A stretch of 64,000 nucleotides of DNA from Azolla caroliniana (Eukaryota > Plantae > Polypodiophyta), in assembly GCA_043228905.1 (NCBI GenBank), contig JBHGNT010000005.1, positions 10,664,001 through 10,728,000 of the forward strand. Direction: 5' to 3'. Below the pieces are notes generated by a model. That model saw only the letters and a list, made by a program, of their open reading frames with translations, made no database searches and was not told the DNA's origin. Within the stretch, counting starts at the first letter, position 1; each line of letters begins with the position of its first letter. Shown here one piece after another: positions 48,101-64,000 of this stretch. The position numbers were made by a program, and so were the translations under genes.

Positions 48101-50556
48101 GTACCATGATGCCGACTCATCAAACTCGACATCTCAACGTACTCGTATCTGTTTAGTCCGGGGATTATAACACTTATACCCCTTCTGCTCATGCGAGTAA
48201 CCGACTAGGATGCACTTCTCCGACTTCGGATCTAGCTTCCTCCGCATCTCATCCGGTACATGCACATATGTTATGCTACCGAATATCCGAAGGTGCCTCA
48301 AATTACGCGAAACACAGCTCATGTGCTGACACCTTGTCTCCGATTCAGTTTTGGATGTAGACAGCCGTTCGGACTTCCTCGGCCCAGTAGAATTGGGGCA
48401 TGCTCTTCTCCTCCAGCATTGCCCTTGCCTCGTCGACAATCGACCAATTCTTCCTTTCGGCCACACCGTTTTGTTCCGGTGTTTATCGACAATTGAATTC
48501 TCTCCGAATTCCATTCTGCTACAGATAACTGTTGAATTGGCCGGAAAAGTATTCTTTTCCGCCATCTGACCGCAAGCACTTGATCTTCCTCTTCGTTTCC
48601 CATTCAACTAAGCTTTGCAAGTTCCAGAAACATTCGAAGGCTTCGCTCTTTCATTCGATGAGGTACATCCACGTGTTTCGGCTGTAGTCGTCGATGAAGG
48701 AGACGAAATATCGACTCCCACCAAGACTAACGTTCAATGCCAATCCCCATACATCCGAATGGATTAGGTCGATCTTGTTACACCTCCGGTTTCGTTCAGT
48801 GGGGAATGGAACCAAGTGTTGCTTCCCGAGTTGGCAGGCTTCACAAATTTCAACCCTCTAGCCGCTAAATTTCGGCAAACCGAAAACGACTTGCTTTGAT
48901 TGCAGGTCTTGAAGCCTCCTATAATTGATGTGGCCGATCCGCTTGTACCATAGGTCGATGTCCGACTCGACCTTCTGCCCTTTCGCAAACATGGCGGTGC
49001 CGACGTCATTAGAGTTGACGATAAACATCGTCCCTTCTCTGCGCCCTTGCGCAATTATCCGGTCTTCTTCCTCGATGAAGCACCGGAGGTGTGTAAACCG
49101 CACCTGCATTCCCTGGTCGACGATTTGTCTCACCGATACCAGGTTCTTTGTGATAGTCGGAACGTGTAGTACGTTCATCAGCTTCCCCTTTGGCCTGACA
49201 TGGCTTAAAGGGACTTCTCCGACATGCACAATCGGGTGAGGGGTATCGTCTTCGGTTTCGACAATCCCCGATTGTTCCGGTTTTTCACAAAAAGAGAACC
49301 ACATTTCATGGCTCGTCATGTGGTTGGAAGCTCCGGAATCAACATACCATACTTCCTCCAATTTGGAAGTACTCTTCTTCATCGAGTTAGCCTTGTGCTT
49401 CATCACGAAGGTTGGCCCTTTACTGGTCTTCCCAGTTCCGGATCCTTCTGGTCCTTCCGTGTAGTGCGAGCTTTGCCAGTTTTCCCGACCGACTTTGCCA
49501 GATCCGTATTTGTCCGAATCGGCGCGCTTCTTCCAGCACTCACTTTCCCTGCGGCCTTTCTTTCCACAGTACCAGCATTCCGTGTCGGCCTTTTCTTTCT
49601 GGTTCCCCGCGTCGCTTTGACTCCCCCTGCTTATGGAGGGTCCAGAACTACTGTCAGCACTGTCTCTTTGCCTTTTGTCCTGCTCTTGCCGACCAACCTC
49701 GTCCTCCACTCCCAGGGGGCCGATCCACCTCCATGTACAGCATCCGACTGTCCGATTGGGTGGTCCTCGACCCACTCGCGTGGTTTTCTTCGACCATCAG
49801 CTTCTCCCAGGTGCAAATCGTTGTCTAGATTAGCCCGTACCTTTGCGCTAGACCACCGAGGAAGATTTGTACCATCTCGTCTTCATCCACCGTCACGTTG
49901 ATGCACCCGAGTGTGTCACAAATCTCCTTTATTTTGGTGGTGTAATCTGTAACCGACATGTCTCTTTGTCGGACATGTTTCAGCTCTTGCCAGAGCTGCA
50001 ACTTACGGGTTGGGTACTCACGGTGAAAATCTTCCTCGGATTTCCCTAGGCCTCCTTTGGCGTTTTTGCATGCTTTATGTAACCTGTTATTCTCTTAACC
50101 GGACAAGGCCTAACACAAGGTGTCACGGAGACACTTCACCAAAGGGTGATTACGGCATAGGATTAAGATTCAACGATTACACCGACTTACATAGGTTACA
50201 CAATTAGAATGCTTCGGTTAATTACACGCGTAAGATATAACAGTAATTACAGAACGGAAACCAAGACAGAAGTATAAACAACATAAGCTCTATTAATTAT
50301 CCGCTCTCATTACAATGGGGTCCGGGCCTTTAAATAGGTTTCCGGCCCGTAGTACAAAACGGTGCTTCTCGCACCTATTCGGGATCCGTCCGGATCTGGA
50401 ACGGCATACCGTTTCCAGTCCGTCCGTCCACACTATGCTCATTTACAACCATATCTAATTAATTCCTTCACTCCGTATTTTGGACTCCTTGCCGGCCGGT
50501 AACACATGGCACGCCCGTGGGACAGTACCTTGTACGTCGAACCCTTCTCGGCCCCT

Positions 50557-52542
50557 TCATTGTTCACCCAAATTGTCCAAAATACTTGGTTCAAGAATTT
50601 CCACTTGTTCTTCCGGTTGTGGTTGTTGCGGCTGTGCTTCCTGCTGCTGCTGTGGTTGAGGTTGGGCCTGAGGCTGCTCCGGCTGCTCTGCTTGCTGCTG
50701 CTGCTCCATTTGTTTCGCTGACTCCGGCTGCTCCGTTTGTCTCTCTGGCTCCGGCATCTCTGTTTGACTGCTTCCGGTCCGGTCTCCTTCCAGTAACGGT
50801 TCCTCATCACTGAGGTTGACCGTAACTGGTTCTCGTTCTTTCTCTCCCCGGATCCGGCGTAGATTCTCAGCAGTCTTCTTGAGTTCTGCCTCCGCTGCCG
50901 TCTTCAGTTCTCTTTCGCGGCTCCTCAGCGCTTCTTGGGCAGCAAGCTCATCCTTTAAATCCGCAAGCTCTTGGGCTTGTGCCGCATTTCTCTCCGGAAC
51001 GGTTCCCGTTGCCGGGGTCTGATTGCTATGTACAGGTTGATCTGACACTTTATTCTGTACATTGCCCGGAGTCACCGGTGCTTGGACTTGTGTTTCCCTT
51101 GTGACCCTGTCCAAGTCTTGTTCAAGGCTCCGGATTCTGGACCGGGCCGTCTCTAGATCTACGGTTGTGACGAGCAACCGTTCCTGGTGCGCTCTCTCTT
51201 CCGCCTCTATATACTCGACCACTCCGGCGATTTGCTCGCCTACCCACCGTAGCCACATGCTACTGGTGCCCTGTTGCTGTACTGGTCGGGTCGGCTCATT
51301 CACTGTGGAATTGTCTGGCCTGATTGCCTGCATATGCCGTTCTGGTTCTACTCCTTGGCCGCCGTGTGCTCTGGCTGGGCTCGCCGGCTGTTGAGTTCCG
51401 GTTCTCGCCGTCTCCGGAGCCGTTGGACTGACTTCTTCCATAGAAGTCGACAAGACCGGTTCCCTACGCACCGGTTCCGGTTCTTCCCTTGTGGTTTGCT
51501 CAGGTTGAGTTGGGGGCGTTTCTGCCTCTCGCGGGTACGACCGCTCCCCTCCTGTCTTGGCGGTCCTACTTCTTGACCGTCGTTGGAGGTGCTCTTCTGG
51601 CTCCTCCGTTTCCTCTTCCTGTGTCACGGCATGTTTCTGTGCCGTCGAGGGTTCCGGTTCCTTCTGTCCCGGTCTCCGTAAGGTTATCTTGACGGGTCGG
51701 ACCGGTGACACCTCCTCCGGTTCTGGGACCCGTTTCTTCCCTTTCGTCGCCTTCGACGCCAGCAACTGCTGTCGTTTGGACGCCGGCTTCGAGGTGCTTC
51801 CTTCCGATACTCTTGGCCGCTTCTTTGGCTGGACGGTCTCGACCGGCGGCACGAGCAATGTTATCCATTGAGCTACGGCGTGCCACAGCTTCCGGCCCTC
51901 CTTGCCGTCCTTCCCTCGTACCATGTCGATTGCCATGCACAATCCGTCTGCAATCAACACCGGCCAGTCCACCTTGATCCCTTCATAGGTGGCTATGATC
52001 ATCCCTGCCCGATTTTTTGGCATGACAGGGGGTCGGGGGTACACGTGACCGTACTCATGGAGCACTCGAGCTATCTCCCTGAATAGCGGATCTTCGCCGC
52101 CCTGCGTCCGATAGCCTTTGCCGGCAACAGAGTACTCACCGAAATATCGGATGAGTTGCTCCGAGGTTGGGTTATCGATCTGAAAGATTCCTCCCTCCGG
52201 AAGGCCTGTTAGCGCGCGGATCGCTTCCTCAGTGATGACCTCTGTGGCGAGCTCCTTGATGACCCGGTCGGCTTCTCTGTGCGGCGGTGCCTCCATGATG
52301 GCCAAGAACCCCTCCAGTCCGTTTTGCCTGAACCATTTCCTGGCCGCTTCCGACAGCGTTTGTGGTTCCATGTCTGCTTCAAGGTCGAGGGAAGATGGCG
52401 AGGTAGAGTGGTGATGAGAGTGAGAGCGAGAGAGAGAGCGTTCTGAGCACGGGGGTTCTCTGCGTGCAGGTTCGCGTTTGCTCAGCTTCCACTGTCTTGG
52501 TGCTTCTGTGCTTCTTGGCTCGCGAAATGAAAAGGTCTCCAT
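50557..52542 (-). CDS. ORF3 of G2b, unknown function (globular N-terminus, low-complexity linker, coiled coil)
   Basis: Open frame of about 660 aa between pol and the 3' LTR; homologous to ORF3 of G2a; true start uncertain. Confidence 0.8.
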   Translation of the reverse strand: METFSFREPRSTEAPRQWKLSKREPARREPPCSERSLSRSHSHHHSTSPSSLDLEADMEPQTLSEAARKWFRQNGLEGFLAIMEAPPHREADRVIKELATEVITEEAIRALTGLPEGGIFQIDNPTSEQLIRYFGEYSVAGKGYRTQGGEDPLFREIARVLHEYGHVYPRPPVMPKNRAGMIIATYEGIKVDWPVLIADGLCMAIDMVRGKDGKEGRKLWHAVAQWITLLVPPVETVQPKKRPRVSEGSTSKPASKRQQLLASKATKGKKRVPEPEEVSPVRPVKITLRRPGQKEPEPSTAQKHAVTQEEETEEPEEHLQRRSRSRTAKTGGERSYPREAETPPTQPEQTTREEPEPVRREPVLSTSMEEVSPTAPETARTGTQQPASPARAHGGQGVEPERHMQAIRPDNSTVNEPTRPVQQQGTSSMWLRWVGEQIAGVVEYIEAEERAHQERLLVTTVDLETARSRIRSLEQDLDRVTRETQVQAPVTPGNVQNKVSDQPVHSNQTPATGTVPERNAAQAQELADLKDELAAQEALRSRERELKTAAEAELKKTAENLRRIRGEKEREPVTVNLSDEEPLLEGDRTGSSQTEMPEPERQTEQPESAKQMEQQQQAEQPEQPQAQPQPQQQQEAQPQQPQPEEQVEILEPSILDNLGEQ

Positions 52543-52696
52543 GCGTTCTGCTTCTTCTTTGTGCGTTTTGGCGCCTTTTTCGAGCATGCACACGTCGTGT
52601 ACCAATTTAGTATTAAGTAGCGTGGCGTCTCTTAAATGCCCACTACGTACCTTTTCGCGCCTTGCTTTCACACCCGTTCATACCTCGATTTTTAAT

Positions 52697-52697
<1 letters not shown>

Positions 52698-52739
<42 letters not shown>
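52698..52739 (-). repeat. A42 tract on the element sense strand between pol and ORF3
   Basis: Run of 42 T on the + strand. Confidence 0.9.
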
Positions 52740-52746
<7 letters not shown>

Positions 52747-52757
52747 GGTGTGTGACC

Positions 52758-55700
52758 TTACACATCCGTAGGTCCCTTCGGACCCTGACCGTTTTCCTGA
52801 CGGGTTGCCGTGTCTTCCTTCGCCTCTGCTACGGGTTCCCCGTCGTCTTTTTCTTCCGGATCGATCCGTACCGATCCCGGACAGGTTCCTGGTGTAGTGC
52901 CGGTGAGCTGCATAAACGGGTTCTTTGGCATCGGTCCTTTATAAGGCTTTAGTCGAAATCCATTCACCCACTTGCCTAGTACTTCCCCGGCAAGTGTCCC
53001 TATCTGATAGGACCCGTTGTATTCCCGTGTCAGCCAATACGGGCCTGTCCATCTGAACCGGAGTTTACCCGGCATTTTGCCCATCCTCGTTTGGAATACT
53101 AGAACCGGCTTTCCGATTTCGAACATCTTTTCGTTACCTTTCCGGTGACGGTCAACGAACGCTTTCCGTCTTCGTTGCTCCAGTTCCATGTGGAGGATGC
53201 TGGCCAGCCGTTGCTCCTCCAGTTCGCATAGTGCTGCTAGCCGTATTTCCTCCGACTTCTTTTCATTCAGCCGTTCCCGTAGTTGGATCCGTAAGCTTGG
53301 TACCTGAAACTCGACCGGCATGACCGCTTCTAAGCCGAATGCTAACCGGAACGGCGTTGTCCGGATACTCGTTTTGTATGCCGTTCTGTACGCCCATAGC
53401 GCACTATGGAGCTTTGTGTCCCAGTCCGTCCGGTTTTCATTGACAATTTTGCGGAGAATGTTCTGCAGCGTTTTGTTGGTGGACTCTGCTAACCCGTTCG
53501 CCTGTGGGTAATACGGTGTGCTTCTTTTATGGACCACGGCATAGAACGTTGTTAAGCTTTCCACTACCTGGCCGAGGAAGTGGCCTCCTTGGTCGCTGAT
53601 TAATTCAATCGGACATCCATATCGGCACCAAATGTTTTCGTACAGGAATTTTGCTGTGGATGACGCGGTGTTGTCTCTCAGGGCCTTAGCTTCCACCCAT
53701 TTAGTGCAATAATCTGTTGCCACGATGACATAACGATTACCCGTTCTCATTGCCGGTCGCTTGAACGGTCCGACAAAATCCAACCCCCACTTCTGGAATG
53801 GCTCTAGTGGCAGTACCGGTTGGTGTGGCATCCGTGCTTGTTCCGTAGGCTGGCCCATTCGTTGGCATAGGTCACATTCCTTAGCATACTTCACGGCATC
53901 TTTTAGCGTCGTGGGCCACCATAAGCCGCTCTGGCATACCTTTCTTGCCGTCGCTTCCCCGGCATAGTGTCCTCCGGCAACCCCACAGTGTGCTTCCCGT
54001 AAGATTACTTCTTTCTCGTCACTACGGACTGCCCGTCTCCATATTCCATCTGCTCCCTTGTGGTAGAGAGTGTCCCGTAATAGACAGAAATTGCGGCTCT
54101 GCACCGCCAGTCGTTTCCTCTCGTCCCGGTTCATTTCCTCCGGTGGCAAGCCCGTGCTTAGGAACTGGTGCATGTTTGTCAGCCATTTATCTTCTGATGC
54201 CACCGTGTCGTCCGCTGCCGTTTCCGGGGTGATACGGAATAACTCCGCGTCCGGGAATTCATCCGCTACTCCGTCGCCTGGTTCTCCGGACTCTAACCGG
54301 CTCAGGTAGTCTGCTACGGCATGCTGGATACCGGGCCGGTGGAAAATCTCGAATTCGAACTCCTGCAACAGCAAGGTCCAACGGGCCAACTTACCGGTTA
54401 GGGACGCCTTGGACACTAAGTACAGAAGCGCCGAGTGATCCACATGAAAGGAGAACTTCCTTCCCAATAGGTAGTGCCGAAACTTTGTGACACTGTAGAT
54501 CATGCCGAGGGCCTCCCGTTCCGTCGTTGAGTAGTTCTTCTCCGCTTGGGATAGTTTCCGGCTTGCGTAATATACCGGCCGGTACCATTTAGGCTCCGTA
54601 AGTTGCATTAAGGCGCTGCCAATAGCGATGTCGGACGCGTCCACGAACACGTGAAATTCCTTGCTCCAATCCGGAGGCTGCACGACAGGTGCTTGCGACA
54701 AAAGTACCTTCAGGGCATTGTATGCCTTATCCTCCGTCTCCGTCCATTGGAACGGTGTCCGATGTACCGCGGTGTGTAATGGTGTCGCCAAGTCCGCCAA
54801 GTGACGGAGCATCCGGCTGTGCCACCGGATTTGTCCTAAGAATCGGCTTAGTGCTTTGGCCGTTTTCGGCGCCGGTGCCCCTAGTATGGCGTTTACTTTG
54901 TCCGGGTCGACCGCAATGCCCTCCTTACTTACGATGTGTCCCAGCAATATTCCACTTGAAACCCCAAAGATGCATTTTGCTGGGTTTAAGCTTAGCCGGT
55001 ATAACCTACACTTTTCAAGGCATAACCGTAGGTGCTGCAAATGGTCTTTTCCCCGGCTATAAACTGCAAAATCATCCAGGAAAACTTGCATGAAGGCAGG
55101 AATGTATTCGCCGAAGATCTCCATGATGATTCGTTGGAACGTTGCTGGTGCCGTTTTTAGGCCGAACATCATGACTTCGGCCACAAACACCCCCCATTCG
55201 GTGACGAACGCTGTCTTTTCCTGGTCGTCCGGGTGCATCCGGATTTGATTGTACCCGCTGAACCCGTCTAAAAGCTATAAACTTCATGACCGGCGACGGC
55301 ATCCAGTACTCCGTCCGTGAACGGAAGAGGGAATGCATCCGTAATTGTGGCGGCATTTAGTTTCCTGTAATCAACACACACACGGATTTTACCGTTCTTC
55401 TTGGGGACGACGACGATGGGGCTCAGCCACGTCGCTTTCTTTACCGGCCGGATGAAGCCCACTCTTAGGAGTTTGTCGATTTCCTCTTTTACTTTGGCGG
55501 CGTAGTTGGGGTTCATTCGGTATCGTCGTTGCGCCACTGGTTTCGCGTCCTTGCCTAAGTGGATCTGATGCTGATATAATTGAGGGTCCAGCCCTCGCAT
55601 GTCTTCGTATGACCAGGCGAATACGTCGCGAAACTCTGTGAGAAGTTTGATCATCGCCGCTTTATCTTCCGGCTTCATTTCTTTGGCGATGTGTACCGGC

Positions 55701-58153
55701 TTTGATTCGTCTTTGCTTCCTAGGTTCACTTCGTCGAGCTGGGATGCTTTTACCCGTTGGGAAACGGCCATTTCTCGTTCCAATGCTTCCTGTGCTTGCC
55801 GTAATTCCCGAATCGCATCTTTATCTGGTTCGGCTTCGGTGTCGTCCCGCTGCGGCAAGTATGGTGCTACGGCTTCAGCTACGTCAATCTCGAAGAGTGG
55901 TACGATCTTCGGGTGTTCCTCCAAGTACTGGGCTTCTTCGTCGTCTGCCAATCCTTCAAGCATGTTCACACATTCCGCATACAGCGGTGTGCATTCCTTA
56001 CCATTGCTTGTCCGTGGTTGTGTCGGAACCCGGACCTTGGCTTTTCCGCGCCGGAAGGTAATCATATTTTTTCGCCAATTTTGCTTGATGTGTGCTGTTT
56101 TCAACCATGGTCTGCCCAGCAGCAGTGGGTACGCGCCTTGCGCCTGTAGCTGCAGCACTACAGCCGAGATGTGAAATGTGTGGCCTCCTATGGTGACTTC
56201 CAATTTCCGTATTAAGCTCGTCGGCCGTACAGAGCTCGTATCCGCCATCCGTAGCCAGAACGGACATGGCTCCCATTCATGTATACCCAAGGCATCACAC
56301 GTGCCAAGGCTTATTACGTTCACTCCGGAACCTCCATCGATTACTGTGCCGGGAAGTTCGTGCCCTTTGACAATAGCTGTGATCACCGGACTACTAGTGT
56401 CCACCACCGTCGGTCCCTCCTCCGGATTCGAGAAAAGAACTGGTGCCGGTGGAGCTATACCGTCTGTCATGACTGTTTTTAGTCCTTCTGTGAATCGCGG
56501 CACGAGCTACAAGAGTCTTCCTAGTGGTAACGTGATCTGACATTCTTGTAGTGCTTGCCATGTCTCGTTTTCCGGGTGGCTACCGCCCGCACTCCCTATG
56601 ATCTTCGCCTTTTGCCGTTCCGCGTCCGCGACGTTTCTTTCATTGGCTTCCTTTACCCATTCCGTCGCCTGTTTTCGTATGGCCTCTTGTGTTTCCCATT
56701 CTTTGGCCATGCCTTTCGACCGTGTGGTTACTTGCTGTAAATCCGCCACTTCCGGAACCACCATATTAACTGCTGGTCGTTTCTCGTAGCTCTTTACCGG
56801 GCACTGGTTACTGTAGTGGCCTTCTTGCCTACAGTAGTAGCAGTACTCTTTACGGGTATTGCTGGATTCAGCATTGCTGGTAGCCGGAGCCGGTCCCGTA
56901 GCGAGTGGTGCGTTCTGTGCCGGTTGGCTCCTTGGGGTTCCATGTTCCGGGTCCCTAGGGTGACCACCTTTCTTGAAATTACGTTTCTTATTATTCTTAT
57001 GTTTATTTCGGTAGTCCGGTCGTGGTGGATCGTAAAATCGGCCGTAGTCCTCCTGGTGCCTTCGGTAACCAGGGGAATGGTCTCTGTCGTATTGCTCGTG
57101 TCGCCTGTTGGGCTCTCGATAACGGTCCGATCGCTCATACCGATCGTAGTTATCACGCCGATTCCCGTACCGGCCATCATTCTGTTGCCTGTCTCCGTAC
57201 CGGATATCCTGTGCCGGTCGGTACCGGTTCATTTTTTGCCAACGATCTTCACCTTCGTCTTGGCTGCTTCTTGGCTCGATCCGTCGGACGGGTGGTGCTT
57301 GTCGGTTTAACAGGTTATACTCGCACCGATCCGTTGTATGACTCTTGGATTGACAAATCACACACTGAGTGCGCATGGTGCACTCTACTGCCGAGTGTCC
57401 GGCATTCAAGCAGATTGTGCATTGAATTGCCTGCCGGAAGCAGAGATCTTCCTCGGTGGGTAACGCCCGTTGCAGTGTTCCCAGCGTAAGCCATGAGCTT
57501 GTCTTTTCCATTTCTCTGACCCGGTCAATGACCTGATCGATGGTGCATCCTCGAAAGTCGATCACCGTACACACCGTGCGTAACGGTTCCCGGAGTGCGT
57601 TTAAAAATATCGTCCGTAATTCCTCCTCCGGGGGTGCACGGGCAAGCTGGCTATGCATTCGTTGGAAACGGATGACGAATTGGGGAATGCTTTCCCCTGC
57701 CTCCTGCCGGATCGTATAAAACAGACCCACCATTGTCGTCTGGTCGACCTCCTTGTGGAAAAAATGCAAGAACTTTGCTTTTAATTCTGCAAATGTTGTG
57801 ATGGTCGCCGAGTCCTGCGACCGCCGCCATCGTGTCGCTGGTCCCTCCAACGTGACTCCGAATTCCGCTATCTTCGAGCGTTCTTCTTCGTCCGGTGTCA
57901 TTCGCTGGGACGTGTGATTTGCTTCCCATGTCTGCTCGAAGTCATCCACATGCGCTTCCGCGTCCGGATCATCGCGGTACTTTGAGTATTGGAACGGCAT
58001 GTCGTCGTCCAGTATTAAGCCGCGGTTTAGTGGCGTTTGTTGATATTTTTCCGGTACTTTCTCCGGTTCCACTTCCGGTTCTTTTGCCGGTCCTTTTTCA
58101 AGATTGCTTAAAGTGTGCGGCACTTCATCGAGGGTTGTTTGGGGTGGACTCAA
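52758..58153 (-). pseudogene. gag-pol: gag-pol of G2b (N-truncated gag, PR, RT, RH, INT) with one stop (56507) and one frameshift (~55268)
   Basis: Zinc knuckles; VIDGGSG; MMFGL and FLDD; VDASD; GLDF/SDQG/NGLAE; GPY. Confidence 0.93.
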
Positions 58154-59013
58154 GTTTAGATCTTATTTGTATGTCTAAACATAAGTAGTGATATAGTTTT
58201 AGAAGAATAGAAGAGTGAGGGCGTGGGTGGGGGTTAGGGGAGTGTAGCTTGTTGAAATTATCAAAAGTATTTAAACCTAATCAAAGTTTTTAGAATATAT
58301 TAAAGATCATTGGGATAACTTAAGTTATTAGACAACAATAACGTACTATTAAAACACCAATATAGAGTATTATTAAAACGGGACCACACGCTTGGATGAA
58401 CGAGAGTTGTTTAAACACACGCTTAAGCAAACACTTAAAAGAAAGATTATTATAAAAAATAAGAATAAAAATAAAAATAGAAAAGAGAGATTGAGATTAA
58501 AAAATGATTATGGTTAAGAAGGGATTATGATTAAGGGGGAAGGGGTTGCTAAACAAAGTACTTAAACGAATGTTTAAACAAATATTTAGATAAGAAAACA
58601 CTTGGGCAGACACTTAACGCAAGGTTAGGATTAAAAGAGAAGGGAGGGATTATGGTTAAAGAAAAGGGGTCATGGTTGAGAAGAGAATGATTATGATTAA
58701 GAGAGGAGAATACTTAAACAAATGTTTAAACAAAAAGTTAAACCTAAAAATGATTGAACAAGTACTTAAAAAAAAGGGGTTAAACAAGTAGTAATAAAAA
58801 TGTTTATTAAACAAGTACTTAATAGAAAATGATTAAATAAATGCTTAAAAACTTAAGACAAAAAAAAAAAAAAAAAAAAAAAAAAAAGATAAAAAAGTGA
58901 TTAAACAAGTACTTAATAAAAGTTTATTAAATAAGTACTTAAGAACTTAAGACAAAAAATTAGATAAGAGCAACACATAGAAGGAAAGAAAGTTTTACTA
59001 TCATAAGGCAACG

Positions 59014-59059
59014 ATCGGCAAATGCATTTCGCCTCGATGGAGGCTCTTCAGTGCCCGAT
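59014..59059 (-). ncRNA. Minimal type-I hammerhead ribozyme
   Basis: Minus strand reads AUCGGGCA-CUGAAGA-GCCUC(CAUC)GAGGC-GAAA-UGCA-UU^UGCCGAU: full core, stems I and II, palindromic stem III. Confidence 0.85.
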
Positions 59060-59221
59060 GTACAAATGATGAAAACTAAGCCTACTAGGTTGCTCTTTTT
59101 ATAGGGAGAGGGAGGAGAGTCCTTTGTATGTGGGACATACAAAAGTGTGTACAAAGGGAAGGTAAAAGAGTGTACACAAGACTTTAGGTGGGGGTTAAGA
59201 GGGGTGAGAGTACATAAAACA

Positions 59222-60960
59222 TTAGGTGGAGGGAAAGGATGCGTGTACTAGGTGGTTTCTTAGTTTTTTACCATTTAGCCAACACGTGAGAGGGGGTGTA
59301 AGGGAACTGTATTGTGGTTGTCCTAGAAGGGGTTTAAGTTTGTTTCTCACGAGCGCTCCGATTTGGAGTTTTTTGATACAAGGGGAGTATCGAAGCTTAA
59401 AAACAATGGGTGGAGGTTTTTTGTTGTTGGGTTGGTTAGAGAGTAGTTGGTTTCGTATGGAGTAGGGGACGGTCGAAAAACACTTGAGTAGGAACTTCGA
59501 TGGGTAGCCCCTAGCTCTTAGGCGGTCGTAGAACTTTTTGCGTAGTTCCATGTAGCCATTTTCCGAGCTCTCCCGAATAGCATACCGTTTTAGTTCGCCC
59601 GTGATGAAGCCCTTTTTGTGTGCTATGGGGTGCGAGGATTTCCACGGGAGGTACATGTAGGCATTGAGAGGTTTTTGGTGGCATGTGGTGTCGAGGATGC
59701 CGAATTCTTTAAAGTATGGGCCTTTGAAGAATACGACGTCCAGGATGGTGATCTCTTTAGGGGAGGTTGTTGATTCAATACGGATGTGTTGTTGTAGAGG
59801 CACGCCGTATTGGTGTAAGAAGGTGTGAAGTGTATCGGGGGAACCTTCCCAAACTCCTATGGCATCATCGATGTAGCGTTTGTAGTAGAGTAGTTGCGGT
59901 GTTTGGAAAGCTAGGTTGTCGTCCTCTAGCTGCGAAAGAAACAAGCAAGCGTAAACAACCGCAAAATTACTACCCATCGCGGTGCCTTTAATTTGTAACC
60001 AAAAAGCATTATTAAAGGAGAGAAAATTGTTTCTAAGTATTAGTTCGGCAACACTCATAATGATTTTGGTTTTGTGTGGTGGGAAATGATGTGAAATAGA
60101 TTTTTTAAAAAACAATAGACCTTCCGTGGTAGGTATACTGGGATATAGTGACACTACGTCAAAAGAAAACAACGTGCAAGTTTTGGGGAAGGTGTGGTGT
60201 GCTAGGTCCTTAACAAGTGTTAAGGAGTCTTTGAGGTGTTGTTTTTTAGACAATAAGACAGGATGTAGTAGATGGTGTAGCCATTTAGAGGCTCTTTCGA
60301 AAACATAATTGTTGTAGGCGCAAATAGGGCGTCCTACAACAATGGGCTTGTGGACTATGGGGATGATGTAGAAACGACATATCCTGAAACCATGTTTGGG
60401 TTTTTGAAGGAGGAATCTAATTTCCTCATTGGAGAGGTGGGGGGAAGCTTTCAGACATAGGTGTTCAAGTCGACTGTGGAGAGTTTCTAGGGGGGCGTCT
60501 TTGACGGGGGTGTAGGTGTTTTTGTCGTTGAGCTGTCTAAGGCATTCGTTAAGGTACCAATCCTTAGAGAGAATGCACGTGCCTAGATTTTTATCCGCGG
60601 GTTTAATAACTATGTCTTGATTTTTTTTGAGATTGCGTAGTGCAGTTCTAAAGTTCCTATGAGGGCGAGGTTGGATGGTGGGTGGGGAGGGGAGGGCAGA
60701 GGTGATAGATGTGATGGTTTGTGTGATTTCTGGCACGGCTGGGGGATTCCAACTGGGGTTCGGTATTCTAAATGGAGAGATAATGTTAGTAGAGTTTCTA
60801 AAGAAATATTTGAGGCGGTAAGTTCTATCCAAGGATACAACGGCATCTATCAATTGTTGTTTTCTAATAGGTTGGGGTGGGGGAATAAAGTCTAGACCTA
60901 AGCTTAGAAGTTTGAGTTGGGGTGGAGGAAGGTGGAAAGAGGAAAGGTTGTGCAATGAGT
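59222..60960 (-). CDS. Penelope-like reverse transcriptase, about 580 aa, open but lacking its own ATG
   Basis: NLS..LLSLGLDFIP; KPADKNLG; FYIIP.VHK..GRPI; SFDVVSLYPSIP; QIKGTAMGS; RYIDD; QKPLN.YMYLPW.SSHP; RGYP. No GIY-YIG domain. Confidence 0.92.
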
Positions 60961-61882
60961 TTAACCGGACAAGGCCTAACACAAGGTGTCACGGAGACAC
61001 TTCACCAAAGGGTGATTACGGCATAGGATTAAGATTCAACGATTACACCGACTTACATAGGTTACACAATTAGAATGCTTCGGTTAATTACACGCGTAAG
61101 ATATAACAGTAATTACAGAACGGAAACCAAGACAGAAGTATAAACAACATAAGCTCTATTAATTATCCGCTCTCATTACAATGGGGTCCGGGCCTTTAAA
61201 TAGGTTTCCGGCCCGTAGTACAAAACGGTGCTTCTCGCACCTATTCGGGATCCGTCCGGATCTGGAACGGCATACCGTTTCCAGTCCGTCCGTCCACACT
61301 ATGCTCATTTACAACCATATCTAATTAATTCCTTCACTCCGTATTTTGGACTCCTTGCCGGCCGGTAACATAACCGAGCATCTAGTCGTGCACACAAGAT
61401 GTGAGGCAGTACAATACTCGATTTCCTCCTTGCTCCCATACTGGGAAGTCTTCGTGTGCCGGCTCCGGCGCTACCTCGTTTGTTCCTTCCATGAAGCTCC
61501 AATATCCATGCCCCAACAGGTACTGGTGCATCTTGTATCACCAGGACGCGTCCTTGCTCCGATCGAGCTTCTCTGTTGGAAGTGAACTCGCCATTCCTCT
61601 ATCCATATCTTCTCTCTGTCTGTTGTTACCGGGTTCTAGGGTTCGTCTACGAAAGCAAGTGTCGACTGCAGAGGTTCTCAACCCTCGCACTCTAATACCA
61701 TGTGAATGTTAACTTGCGGAAGCATTAGACAGAACCGGCTCAGCCGAAGAGCAACAGAGAATAAGATGAAGGTTTAATGGAGAAGTTTAATACATAGACA
61801 GTATACGCGGGAGAGATAGGGAGAGCAAAACGTAAACGTAGATTCAAAATATCACTTTGAAAATTCTATGTACATAAAACGT

Positions 61883-64000
61883 TGTTGTGGCGTCGCTCGC
61901 CTAGAAGCGTAGCGTTGCGTAGACTGAAGACAACGTGAAAGTGAGGAAGGAATCGTTCAGATTTTGGACGAAAGAGACGAAAGAGTGGAAATAGATAAAT
62001 AGTGATCAACAAGATATGACAAGATAGGATGTAAAATGATAATTGAGGGAATGTAAGAAATTTATAATTATTTCATGAAAGAGTTCAAAATGGTTGCGAG
62101 CATCGTTGAACCGTCGAACTTTGTCTCACAAGGTAGTCGCTCTTCTCTTTCTTGATAGTAGACCACAATCTTCCCTTCTATCTTTCGACGACGATAAGAC
62201 TCGAACCTCCGCCTTTTCGTTGCGAGTTGAGCACCGCCGCCTCCAAGCTAGTTCTTCTCTTGTCTTTTGAAGATTGTATATAGATTTTACCTTCTCTCCC
62301 TCTTTCTCTATTATGATATCTCTTACAATATAATTTCGCTCAATTCCATACAATAATTCTATTCAATATGATTGTTTGATTCCTTGATGTCCTTGTGACT
62401 ATACTCCCTTCTCCTTTAATAGGAAGGGGATGGTTTTGCATGTGACCCATATGTCACACATGCAAAGAGGGCTCTTGCATGTGTGCTATATGGTGCACAT
62501 GTAGTACATTACATGGTTTAGACTATACAATGCTACTTCAAATAAAACAATACTTTTTTTTTTATACATATGATGAGTTTGGTTAAATGGTAGGTTTTGA
62601 GTGTCATAATGTGGAGGTTGTTGGTTCAAGTTTTCTCTCGCCCATGTAATACAATATATGATGCACATGTAGTACATTATATGGTTTAGGATTTAAACCA
62701 TACAATATTACTTCAAATAAAACAAGACAAATAGTTTTATACAAATTACAATTATAGGGTAAATGGTAAGGTTTCAGAGTCATAAGGTGGGTGTTATTGG
62801 TGCAAGTCCTCTCTTGTCCATGTAATATTTATTTATTTATTGCCTCTACATATAATGTATAATATTATCATAGGGTGTTTTTAATATTACCTTTATAAAA
62901 CATTATGAAGATATATTTTATTTTAGTTACATATTTATCTTTTTGTAGACTTTTAATGTGAAGCTTTCGTACTTCACGACATCCACCGCCTCTAGACCTA
63001 CACATCCTCCGGCATGTGCCACTATCTTCCATCGTCATGTTGATCTATTGGAGGAGGTTCTAGCTCAAACCTTTTCTTAAATACTTTTATCCTCTTTCCA
63101 GCTACCACATTTAGGATTAGTGTCCCATCCAATTCACTAAGTTTATAAGTAAAGTTATCATATACTTTTCTTAGTATGTAAGGCCCAAACCATCTTTCAA
63201 CGAACTTGCGGACAGTGCTATGTTCATTATCTAAATTGCTATCATACACAAGCAGCCAATCCCCTTCTTCTATCTTCTTATGTCGAATTCTGTGAGTTTT
63301 ATCAAAACAAATTTTATTCTTTAGTCGAGCCTCCTTCAATCATTGTGCTGCTAATTCTACATCTTCAGGCTGACGTTGTAATTGTTGAATTCTCAAAGCA
63401 AGCAATTCTTCTCTGCTTAGCTCTTCTCTCCATGGAATAGATGTCCATGACATAATTGATTCTTCTATTGGCATGATGGGCTTTTGGCCAAGTATTAGTT
63501 CAACTGGCATATATCCTCTTACCGAACTATCTGTTGTCCGATCTACCCATATTGCATAAGGTAGCATGCGTGGCCAATCTCTTAATCTACCTTTAAAACT
63601 TTTCATGATCGCCTTAACTATTGGGCTATGTCCTCTTTCCATCTTTCCATTGCCTTTTGGATTATAAGCAATTGTAAGTGATAACTTGACCCCTATCCGA
63701 CTGAAGAATTGTCTAGCTTCATCAAAATCAAGCTCTCCTTTATCTGCAATTACTTTACCAACACACCCATAACGACATATTACATCTTCTAACAAAAATT
63801 TACATACAACTTTATTTGTTTTTGTCGTAGTGGTCTTCCTTCTACTTGGTTTGTAAGGTCTTCTCTTGCTAGTACTAAATATCGCATTTGACCTTCCCCA
63901 AGTGGCATTGTCACTAGGTCGACCATCCATTTATAATGCATTAATGATGAATATGTTGGGTTTAGCTCATCTCGATACCGAATAGTCGAGTACCTCTAGC
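61883..64000 (-). mobile_element. 3' end of Gypsy element J (3' LTR 61883-62981; integrase 63022-63930), inserted in the 5' LTR of H
   Basis: LTR TGTCGTGAAG...CACAACA; purine-rich tract adjacent; integrase CRYG..IADKG..AYNPKGNG.ME..WFGPY. Confidence 0.82.

What the first reader, a model, noticed from the sequence alone, without database searches (positions are those of the whole stretch)
59014..59059. Minimal hammerhead ribozyme about 160 nt downstream of the PLE stop codon
Seen on the RT sense strand: the CUGAAGA and GAAA core, a 5-bp stem II, a 7-bp stem I with one bulge, and a stem III reduced to the palindrome AUGCAU, with predicted cleavage after AUU (59021/59020). Known: PLEs carry minimal type-I hammerheads with palindromic stem III that are thought to cleave as dimers. 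Inference: this ribozyme defines the ends of the element RNA.
Basis: partly seen in the sequence, partly recalled or inferred. Interest (0 to 1): 0.8.

Follow-up and report, generated by a model that had tools for sequence, protein, structure and literature searches.

The report
Hammerhead ribozyme of plant Penelope element
This is a real, conserved hammerhead-type RNA motif, predicted to cut itself, in a known kind of plant jumping gene that lacks a DNA-cutting enzyme; it sits just behind a likely promoter and so likely trims the start of the element's RNA, while the DNA copies end 600-900 bases further on at a separate hairpin signal.

Summary
The hammerhead is there as described (59059-59014, minus strand, predicted cut 59021/59020). 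Chance expectation is 0.013 per shuffled window. It is kept in 6 of 6 related loci: 36-38 of 39 bases, against about 50% at silent RT sites in the three distant ones. It is a canonical type I with a 2-bp palindromic helix III, not a strict 'minimal' hammerhead, and it has a U at the cleavage site. It belongs to a two-ORF, endonuclease-less Penelope-like element of the Selaginella/Coprina type (unit about 5.2 kb). A TATA box and initiator-like site lie 50 nt before the cut in 7 of 7 copies, so the ribozyme likely sits at the RNA's 5' end. It does not mark the DNA end: 3 of 3 copies with a junction stop about 640-930 nt downstream, just past a conserved double hairpin. The window copy is 5'-truncated, has one hammerhead, and sits inside a young gypsy element with a 6-nt microhomology. 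Cleavage, promoter and RNA ends are untested. The scan noted this family before elsewhere in this genome. Known kind; useful layout.

The parts
59014..59059 (-). Type I hammerhead: stem I (4 conserved bp, 7 with a bulge here), CUGAAGA core, 5-bp stem II, GAAA, palindromic 2-bp helix III, predicted cut 59021/59020 after A-U-U
59020..59029 (-). 10-nt perfect palindrome; the inner 6 nt would form helix III of a double hammerhead, the full 10 bp a rival inactive duplex
   Evidence: double hammerhead -30.3, best cofold with extended palindrome -33.9, two monomers -27.2 kcal/mol
59000..59070 (-). Predicted distal extension of stem I (59070-59066 with 59004-59000) closing an internal loop; relatives use a different 7-bp helix at the same place
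59097..59104 (-). TATA-box-like CTATAAAA, the only CTATAAA on the minus strand of the window
   Evidence: present in 7 of 7 copies
59066..59073 (-). Initiator-like site; predicted start A at 59070, 33 nt after TATA and 50 nt before the cut
   Evidence: spacing 32-33 and 49-50 nt in 7 of 7 copies; the reading as a promoter is inference
59222..60960 (-). PLE reverse transcriptase ORF, 5'-truncated (the first 9 codons of the 588-aa open frame come from the gypsy LTR); DKN motif, no GIY-YIG; 9 of 578 residues differ from L001, one of them the conserved Lys of the PK(I/L)HK motif
58186..59013 (-). AT-rich, internally repetitive spacer that belongs to the PLE unit
   Evidence: 97.9% to L001 over 60960-58166
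58106..58185 (-). Conserved double-hairpin motif just before the 3' end of the copies; likely the start signal for reverse transcription
   Evidence: 61-73 of 80-81 bases; z -2.9 to -7.7; depth drop
58093..58099 (-). 3' junction PLE/gypsy gag with at least 6 nt of microhomology (an A run)
   Evidence: a PLE contig matches down to 58093; gypsy contigs match up to 58099
60961..61370 (-). 5' LTR of the host gypsy element, lacking its last 10 nt; blunt junction to the PLE
   Evidence: 410 of 410 identical to 50095-50504
50085..58092 (-). Rest of the host gypsy element (gag lacking its start, pol, third ORF, complete 3' LTR 50085-50504); 5-nt target duplication at 61371-61375 and 50080-50084

Best explanation
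The motif is a conserved type I hammerhead of an endonuclease-less, two-ORF plant Penelope-like element; it lies just behind a likely Pol II promoter, likely cuts only as a pair with the hammerhead of the next unit, and would then release a unit-length RNA, while reverse transcription likely starts at a separate double hairpin about 900 nt downstream. Shown: the sequence, its conservation, the unit layout (ORF1, RT, TATA, hammerhead, AT-rich spacer, double hairpin), tandem units in relatives, and where DNA copies end. Inferred: transcription starts near 59070 and, in a tandem, reads through the next unit, so one RNA holds two hammerheads about 5.1 kb apart. These pair through the palindrome and cut. 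The monomer carries at most one hammerhead once its ends are rejoined, and that one is inactive alone. RT primes inside the RNA, past the hairpins, on an exposed DNA end by short base pairing. It copies back through an intact (uncut or religated) hammerhead and usually stops early. The window copy is such a truncated product, patched into a break in a gypsy element, and is likely inert as an element.
For: Purifying selection: hammerhead 36-38 of 39 and TATA-to-initiator 35-37 of 39 bases kept in L003-L005, against 50-54% at fourfold RT sites and 35-55 of 115 between stop and TATA. The one core change seen is at N7, the free position. Fixed TATA/start/cut spacing in 7 of 7 copies. The double hammerhead is 3 kcal/mol more stable than two monomers. 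Two hammerheads in tandem are inferred from L003 and L004, which overlap by 2160 nt at 100%. 3 of 3 junction-bearing copies end within about 40 nt after the hairpin motif, and the flanks change from G-poor element (4-7% G) to 19-22% G. Summed contig depth falls across this point in 3 of 3 DNA runs (578 to 58, 696 to 9, 507 to 166) with no consistent fall at the ribozyme (521 to 357, 440 to 207, 376 to 548). Precedents: internal RT initiation at a stem-loop in a PLE (PMC11167929), a promoter upstream of a hammerhead in a plant retrozyme (PMC12029980), and the dimer and circle model (PMC4209133).
Against: No cleavage, start-site or circle data. No compensatory double change in 11 pairs over 6 sequences; only two G-C to G-U changes in L004, which look like decay. 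U17 makes a 10-bp palindrome duplex the best cofold (-33.9 against -30.3 kcal/mol), so cutting may be slow. In the anole PLE, hammerhead mutants inserted normally and no RNA reads ended at the cut site (PMC11167929). The two tandem motif copies inside L004 are only 84% alike, which fits successive additions better than one run round a circle. No copy whose 5' end lies at the start site or cut site was seen among the loose ends shown (212 rows not shown). Contig depth is not a copy number. Rfam finds no hammerhead.
Confidence: 0.55

Rival explanations
1. The uncut read-through RNA is the normal template; the hammerhead is a slow, perhaps protein-assisted switch that acts late or limits the element, and no unit-length or circular RNA is needed.
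For: Every copy holds an intact hammerhead (7 of 7). U17 and the 10-nt palindrome favour an inactive duplex. Direct precedent in PMC11167929. Unlike units in one tandem.
Against: It does not by itself explain the fixed 50-nt spacing from the predicted start, or the fully kept palindrome.
Confidence: 0.25
2. The cut removes the capped first 50 nt to change how the RNA is translated (cap-independent initiation, or shutting translation off in favour of use as template).
For: Position right behind the predicted start. Type I hammerheads in 5' UTRs of RNA viruses drive cap-independent translation (PMC13725137, passages).
Against: ORF1 starts about 1.3 kb after the cut, and those viral hammerheads have a long helix III and work as monomers.
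Confidence: 0.1
3. As in Terminons, the hammerhead forms the 3'-terminal structure of the RNA and presents telomere-complementary repeats for priming.
For: It lies after the RT stop in an endonuclease-less PLE, and the arrangement is described for telomeric PLEs (PMC6431247, passages).
Against: No telomere-like unit was found in 58000-61000. Partial units lie beside the distal motif in L003 and L004 instead. Copies end 640-930 nt past the cut.
Confidence: 0.05
4. The motif no longer cuts and is kept only as part of a promoter or a protein-binding site.
For: No covariation; no Rfam hit; adjacent to a conserved TATA block.
Against: All catalytic core positions are invariant and only N7, the loop and the outer stem I vary. 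The distal stem I is rebuilt with other pairs in the two subfamilies.
Confidence: 0.05

Closest known systems
[quoted passage not shown]
   Same: Type I topology, helices I-III, short palindromic helix III, location in the repeat that flanks a plant PLE ORF
   Different: U at position 17 and a 10-nt palindrome here. The Selaginella sequence itself (a figure and an unsearched supplement) could not be compared. A promoter and distal motif are not mentioned in the parts read.
Plant EN(-) PLEs of the Coprina group (Selaginella Sm1/Sm2, conifer Pt1)
   Same: RT 41-42% identical to Selaginella and Cryptomeria proteins. Motifs match the 'Selagine1' reference row printed beside Coprina in the supplement of PMC8557442 (by eye). 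DKN motif, no GIY-YIG, two ORFs, tandem units, 5' truncation.
   Different: This copy, L004 and L005 have non-telomeric flanks, and the telomere-like patch is not next to the hammerhead.
Athena/Terminon telomeric PLEs (PMC6431247)
   Same: No endonuclease, ORF1 before RT, hammerhead after the RT ORF, head-to-tail chains
   Different: There the hammerhead is 3'-terminal with telomeric repeats directly downstream; here the DNA end is 640-930 nt away at another structure.
Poseidon PLE of Anolis carolinensis (PMC11167929)
   Same: Copy ends are set by internal RT initiation at a stem-loop downstream of a hammerhead that stays intact in the copies
   Different: That element has a GIY-YIG endonuclease and its start sites lie about 90 nt from the cut, inside the ORF.
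PLE-X (endonuclease-less Chlamys) of Chara and Selaginella (PMC8557442)
   Same: Plant, no endonuclease, hammerhead reported
   Different: PLE-X has CxC motifs, DKA in place of DKN, a different N-terminus, and in Selaginella a hammerhead near the 5' end and a 28S target; none seen here.

Membership tests
Type I hammerhead ribozyme | Conserved core CUGANGA ... GAAA ... UH | tested here: met
   7 of 7 copies; H17 is U
Type I hammerhead ribozyme | Closed helices II and III, open helix I | tested here: met
   100% of 66 cells pair; helix III only 2 bp, closable in a dimer
Type I hammerhead ribozyme | Covariation in helices | tested here: inconclusive
   0 double changes, 9 of 11 pairs invariant; the sample is too close
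Type I hammerhead ribozyme | Rfam hammerhead model score | tested here: not met
   no hit at E<=10; whether these models cover short-helix-III forms was not tested
Type I hammerhead ribozyme | Self-cleavage at the predicted site | not testable with these tools
   needs an in vitro assay
min-HHR of PMC4209133 | No helix III or loop 3; long helix II (7-8 bp) with an unpaired base before it | tested here: not met
   2-bp helix III with 2-nt loop, 5-bp helix II, no extra base
Penelope-like element | PLE-type RT with N-terminal GxKF/DK motifs | tested here: met
Penelope-like element | Tandem or partial-tandem units and 5' truncation | tested here: met
   L003 and L004; depth falls towards the 5' end; the window copy itself is single
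EN(-) PLE, Coprina group | No GIY-YIG domain in the unit | tested here: met
   no motif in 3 sense frames of 4 of 4 full-unit loci; no Pfam hit; homologues end at the same place
EN(-) PLE, Coprina group | RT falls in the Coprina clade of a tree | not tested
   no reference set was available as stored sequence; only a by-eye match to the 'Selagine1' row
EN(-) PLE, Coprina group | Location at chromosome ends | tested here: inconclusive
   the window copy, L004 and L005 have internal-looking flanks; the genome was not held, so telomeric copies were not surveyed
Terminon-type 3' end | Reverse-complement telomeric repeats immediately after the hammerhead | tested here: not met
PLE-X / Chlamys | CxC motif and CxCX1-8C N-terminal extension | tested here: not met

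The most novel reading that the evidence does not exclude
A plant endonuclease-less PLE that splits its RNA signals in three: a promoter firing straight into a dimer-gated hammerhead, which releases a 5.2-kb RT-encoding RNA circle, and a separate double hairpin where RT starts inside the circle and primes on any broken DNA end. It would be an autonomous circular-RNA retroelement that spreads away from telomeres by patching breaks.
Probability: 0.25. Interest if true: 0.75.

Novelty: new member of a known kind. Interest (0 to 1): 0.38.

Why it matters
What hammerheads do for Penelope-like elements is stated to be unclear (PMC8557442), and they were dispensable in the one in vitro system (PMC11167929). 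Here the predicted promoter, the cut site and the DNA end are separated by 50 and about 900 nt, in a young family (98% identical copies). That lets RNA-end mapping tell the circle, uncut-template and translation models apart. The copy also shows an endonuclease-less PLE integrated inside a young LTR element with target loss and microhomology.

Tried and rejected
No whole genome was held, so copy ends could not be surveyed genome-wide. Rfam gave only chance hits. Pfam had no hit for the window RT and PDB none for the alignment. No RNA holder was listed; the one guessed-RNA run laid gave short pieces of several subfamilies and no usable end. No contig bridging either PLE/gypsy junction appeared among the rows shown (most rows not shown), which proves nothing. 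A scan of viral contigs found no relative. Prokaryote genome bins gave 5 relatives at 25-29%; 1 of 5 has a hammerhead-like core after its RT but without this promoter layout, too distant for covariation. The fourfold-site figures were misframed and are replaced. The bacterial promoter scan is not relevant to Pol II. Considered and rejected: the distal motif as a second hammerhead (U4 not kept, no GAAA); PLE-X membership; the AT-rich region as gypsy 5' UTR (it is PLE sequence); the PLE as regular cargo of the gypsy family (gypsy contigs continue past 58099 with other sequence and are far deeper). A literature search on U17 cleavage rates gave nothing useful; that A-U-U sites cut more slowly is recalled, not read.

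Full report
Observation. A descriptor expects 0.013 such hits per shuffled window, and 0 of 150 shuffles pass the strict form. Folding energy alone is unremarkable (z 0.11) and Rfam reports no hammerhead. By the definitions in PMC4209133 (parts 1-2 of 4 of the text read), a 2-bp helix III with a small palindromic loop is the 'canonical' type I form, not the 'min-HHR'.

Conservation. A metagenome scan gave 6 loci at 84-98% protein identity. All 6 carry the hammerhead after the RT stop. Against L003, L004 and L005, the hammerhead keeps 38, 36 and 37 of 39 bases, while fourfold sites in the last 500 RT codons keep 50-54% and the stop-to-TATA spacer 35-55 of 115 (L006 was left out of this count because its RT frame is broken). 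Variation falls at N7, in loop II and in the outer stem I. There is no compensatory double change in 11 pairs. A distal helix beyond an internal loop is predicted in all 7 copies but with different pairs in the two subfamilies. U17 is fixed in 7 of 7 and extends the palindrome to 10 nt. A double hammerhead (-30.3 kcal/mol) beats two monomers (-27.2), but a duplex using the longer palindrome is better still (-33.9), so cleavage is predicted to need a dimer and to be damped.

The element. The RT's best named relatives are from Selaginella, Cryptomeria, Picea and Closterium. Its motifs match by eye the Selaginella reference row printed beside Coprina in the supplement of PMC8557442. No GIY-YIG motif occurs in 4 of 4 full-unit loci. 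L001 and L002 show a unit of about 5.2 kb: a 655-aa ORF1, an overlapping RT frame shifted by -1, the hammerhead, an AT-rich spacer and a conserved double hairpin. It is not PLE-X. The host is a land plant by these relatives and the leaf and plant metagenome holders; earlier notes of this scan call it a fern, which I did not test.

The window copy. It spans 60960-58093, lacks ORF1 and the RT start, and differs from L001 at 9 of 578 residues including a conserved motif Lys. It lies inside a gypsy element whose LTRs are 410 of 410 identical and which is flanked by a 5-nt target duplication. The last 10 nt of the 5' LTR are not found after the PLE, and the primer-binding site and gag start are missing, so target DNA was lost. 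The 5' junction is blunt. At the 3' junction a PLE contig matches down to 58093 and gypsy contigs up to 58099, giving at least 6 nt of microhomology. This fits priming on a broken end without an endonuclease (inference). A later deletion could also account for the missing gypsy DNA. The copy has one hammerhead and no partner in the window.

Where copies end. The window copy, L004 and L005 (3 of 3 with a visible junction) stop within about 40 nt after the double hairpin (58185-58106), whose last block ends 915, 843 and 637 nt after the cut. L002 and L003 read through it into the next 5' UTR; L001 and L006 end before it. Summed contig depth on L002 falls across this point in 3 of 3 DNA runs (about 10-, 70- and 3-fold) and shows no consistent step at the ribozyme (depth is not a copy number). 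The motif keeps 61-73 of 80-81 bases and folds at z -2.9 to -7.7. Partial plant-telomere-like units follow it in L003 and L004, and none lies near the hammerhead. So every DNA copy was made from a template with an intact hammerhead inside it, and the cut does not set the DNA end. This differs from the Terminon layout (PMC6431247, passages) and resembles the internal initiation shown for an anole PLE (PMC11167929, parts 1-2 of 4).

The promoter. A CTATAAAA block and an initiator-like site precede the hammerhead in 7 of 7 copies at fixed spacing (32-33 nt to the predicted start, 49-50 nt on to the cut). The block is as conserved as the ribozyme (35-37 of 39) and is the only CTATAAA on the minus strand of the window. 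The TATA and initiator consensus and their spacing are recalled general knowledge. A promoter upstream of a hammerhead is shown for a plant retrozyme (PMC12029980, passages). The ribozyme thus likely sits at the 5' end of the transcript of the next unit.

Mechanism. Most likely (0.55): transcription from this promoter through a tandem gives an RNA with two hammerheads about 5.1 kb apart (L003 plus L004). They cut as a pair and release a unit-length RNA, possibly circularised (model of PMC4209133). RT starts past the double hairpin and copies back through an intact hammerhead. Rivals: the uncut RNA is the template (0.25), favoured by PMC11167929 and by the 84% identity of the two tandem motif copies in L004; a translational role (0.1; PMC13725137, passages); a Terminon-type 3' end (0.05); a dead relic (0.05).

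Novelty. A type I hammerhead in a plant endonuclease-less PLE is published for Selaginella. The paper searches listed no study of this promoter-hammerhead-hairpin layout. However, Gladyshev and Arkhipova 2007, Lin 2016 and Arkhipova 2017 were not held, and the main supplement of PMC4209133 could not be searched; these may already describe it. Other papers seen: PMC8557442 (passages, section 9, supplement hits), PMC13159263 and PMC9033089 (passages), bioRxiv 10.64898/2026.07.22.740005 (part 1 of 5). Two earlier notes on this genome describe the same family, one with the second signal. I had recorded that signal before reading them, but they are not independent evidence. Verdict: real, a new member of a known kind, with a layout that makes the open question of hammerhead function in PLEs testable; interest 0.38.

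Noticed in passing
window 50080-61375: Gypsy element with identical LTRs nested in a copia-like element and carrying a 706-aa third open frame (50557-52677) after pol; disabled by the PLE insertion
   Followed up: partly
L001 2290-2340; L003 2200-2260: ORF1 overlaps the conserved start of the RT frame by about 12 codons in the -1 frame, with no ATG and no obvious slippery heptamer; in Closterium homologues (P0031) the two parts appear to be one ORF
   Followed up: no
window 59076-59089 (-): Small conserved palindrome-like block between TATA box and predicted start site, kept in 7 of 7 copies
   Followed up: no
L004 4893-4899: Two C-to-T changes turn stem I G-C pairs into G-U, likely decay of that copy
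   Followed up: yes
proteins P0009, P0137-P0143 (Cryptomeria japonica): Several near-identical RT homologues on the same 50-52 kb scaffolds, suggesting tandem arrays of this lineage in a conifer
   Followed up: no
L008 3736: A distant PLE-like RT (25%) in a bacterial genome bin has a hammerhead-like core about 420 nt after it; likely eukaryotic contamination of the bin
   Followed up: partly
window 62436-62830: Inverted and tandem repeats upstream of the copia fragment
   Followed up: no
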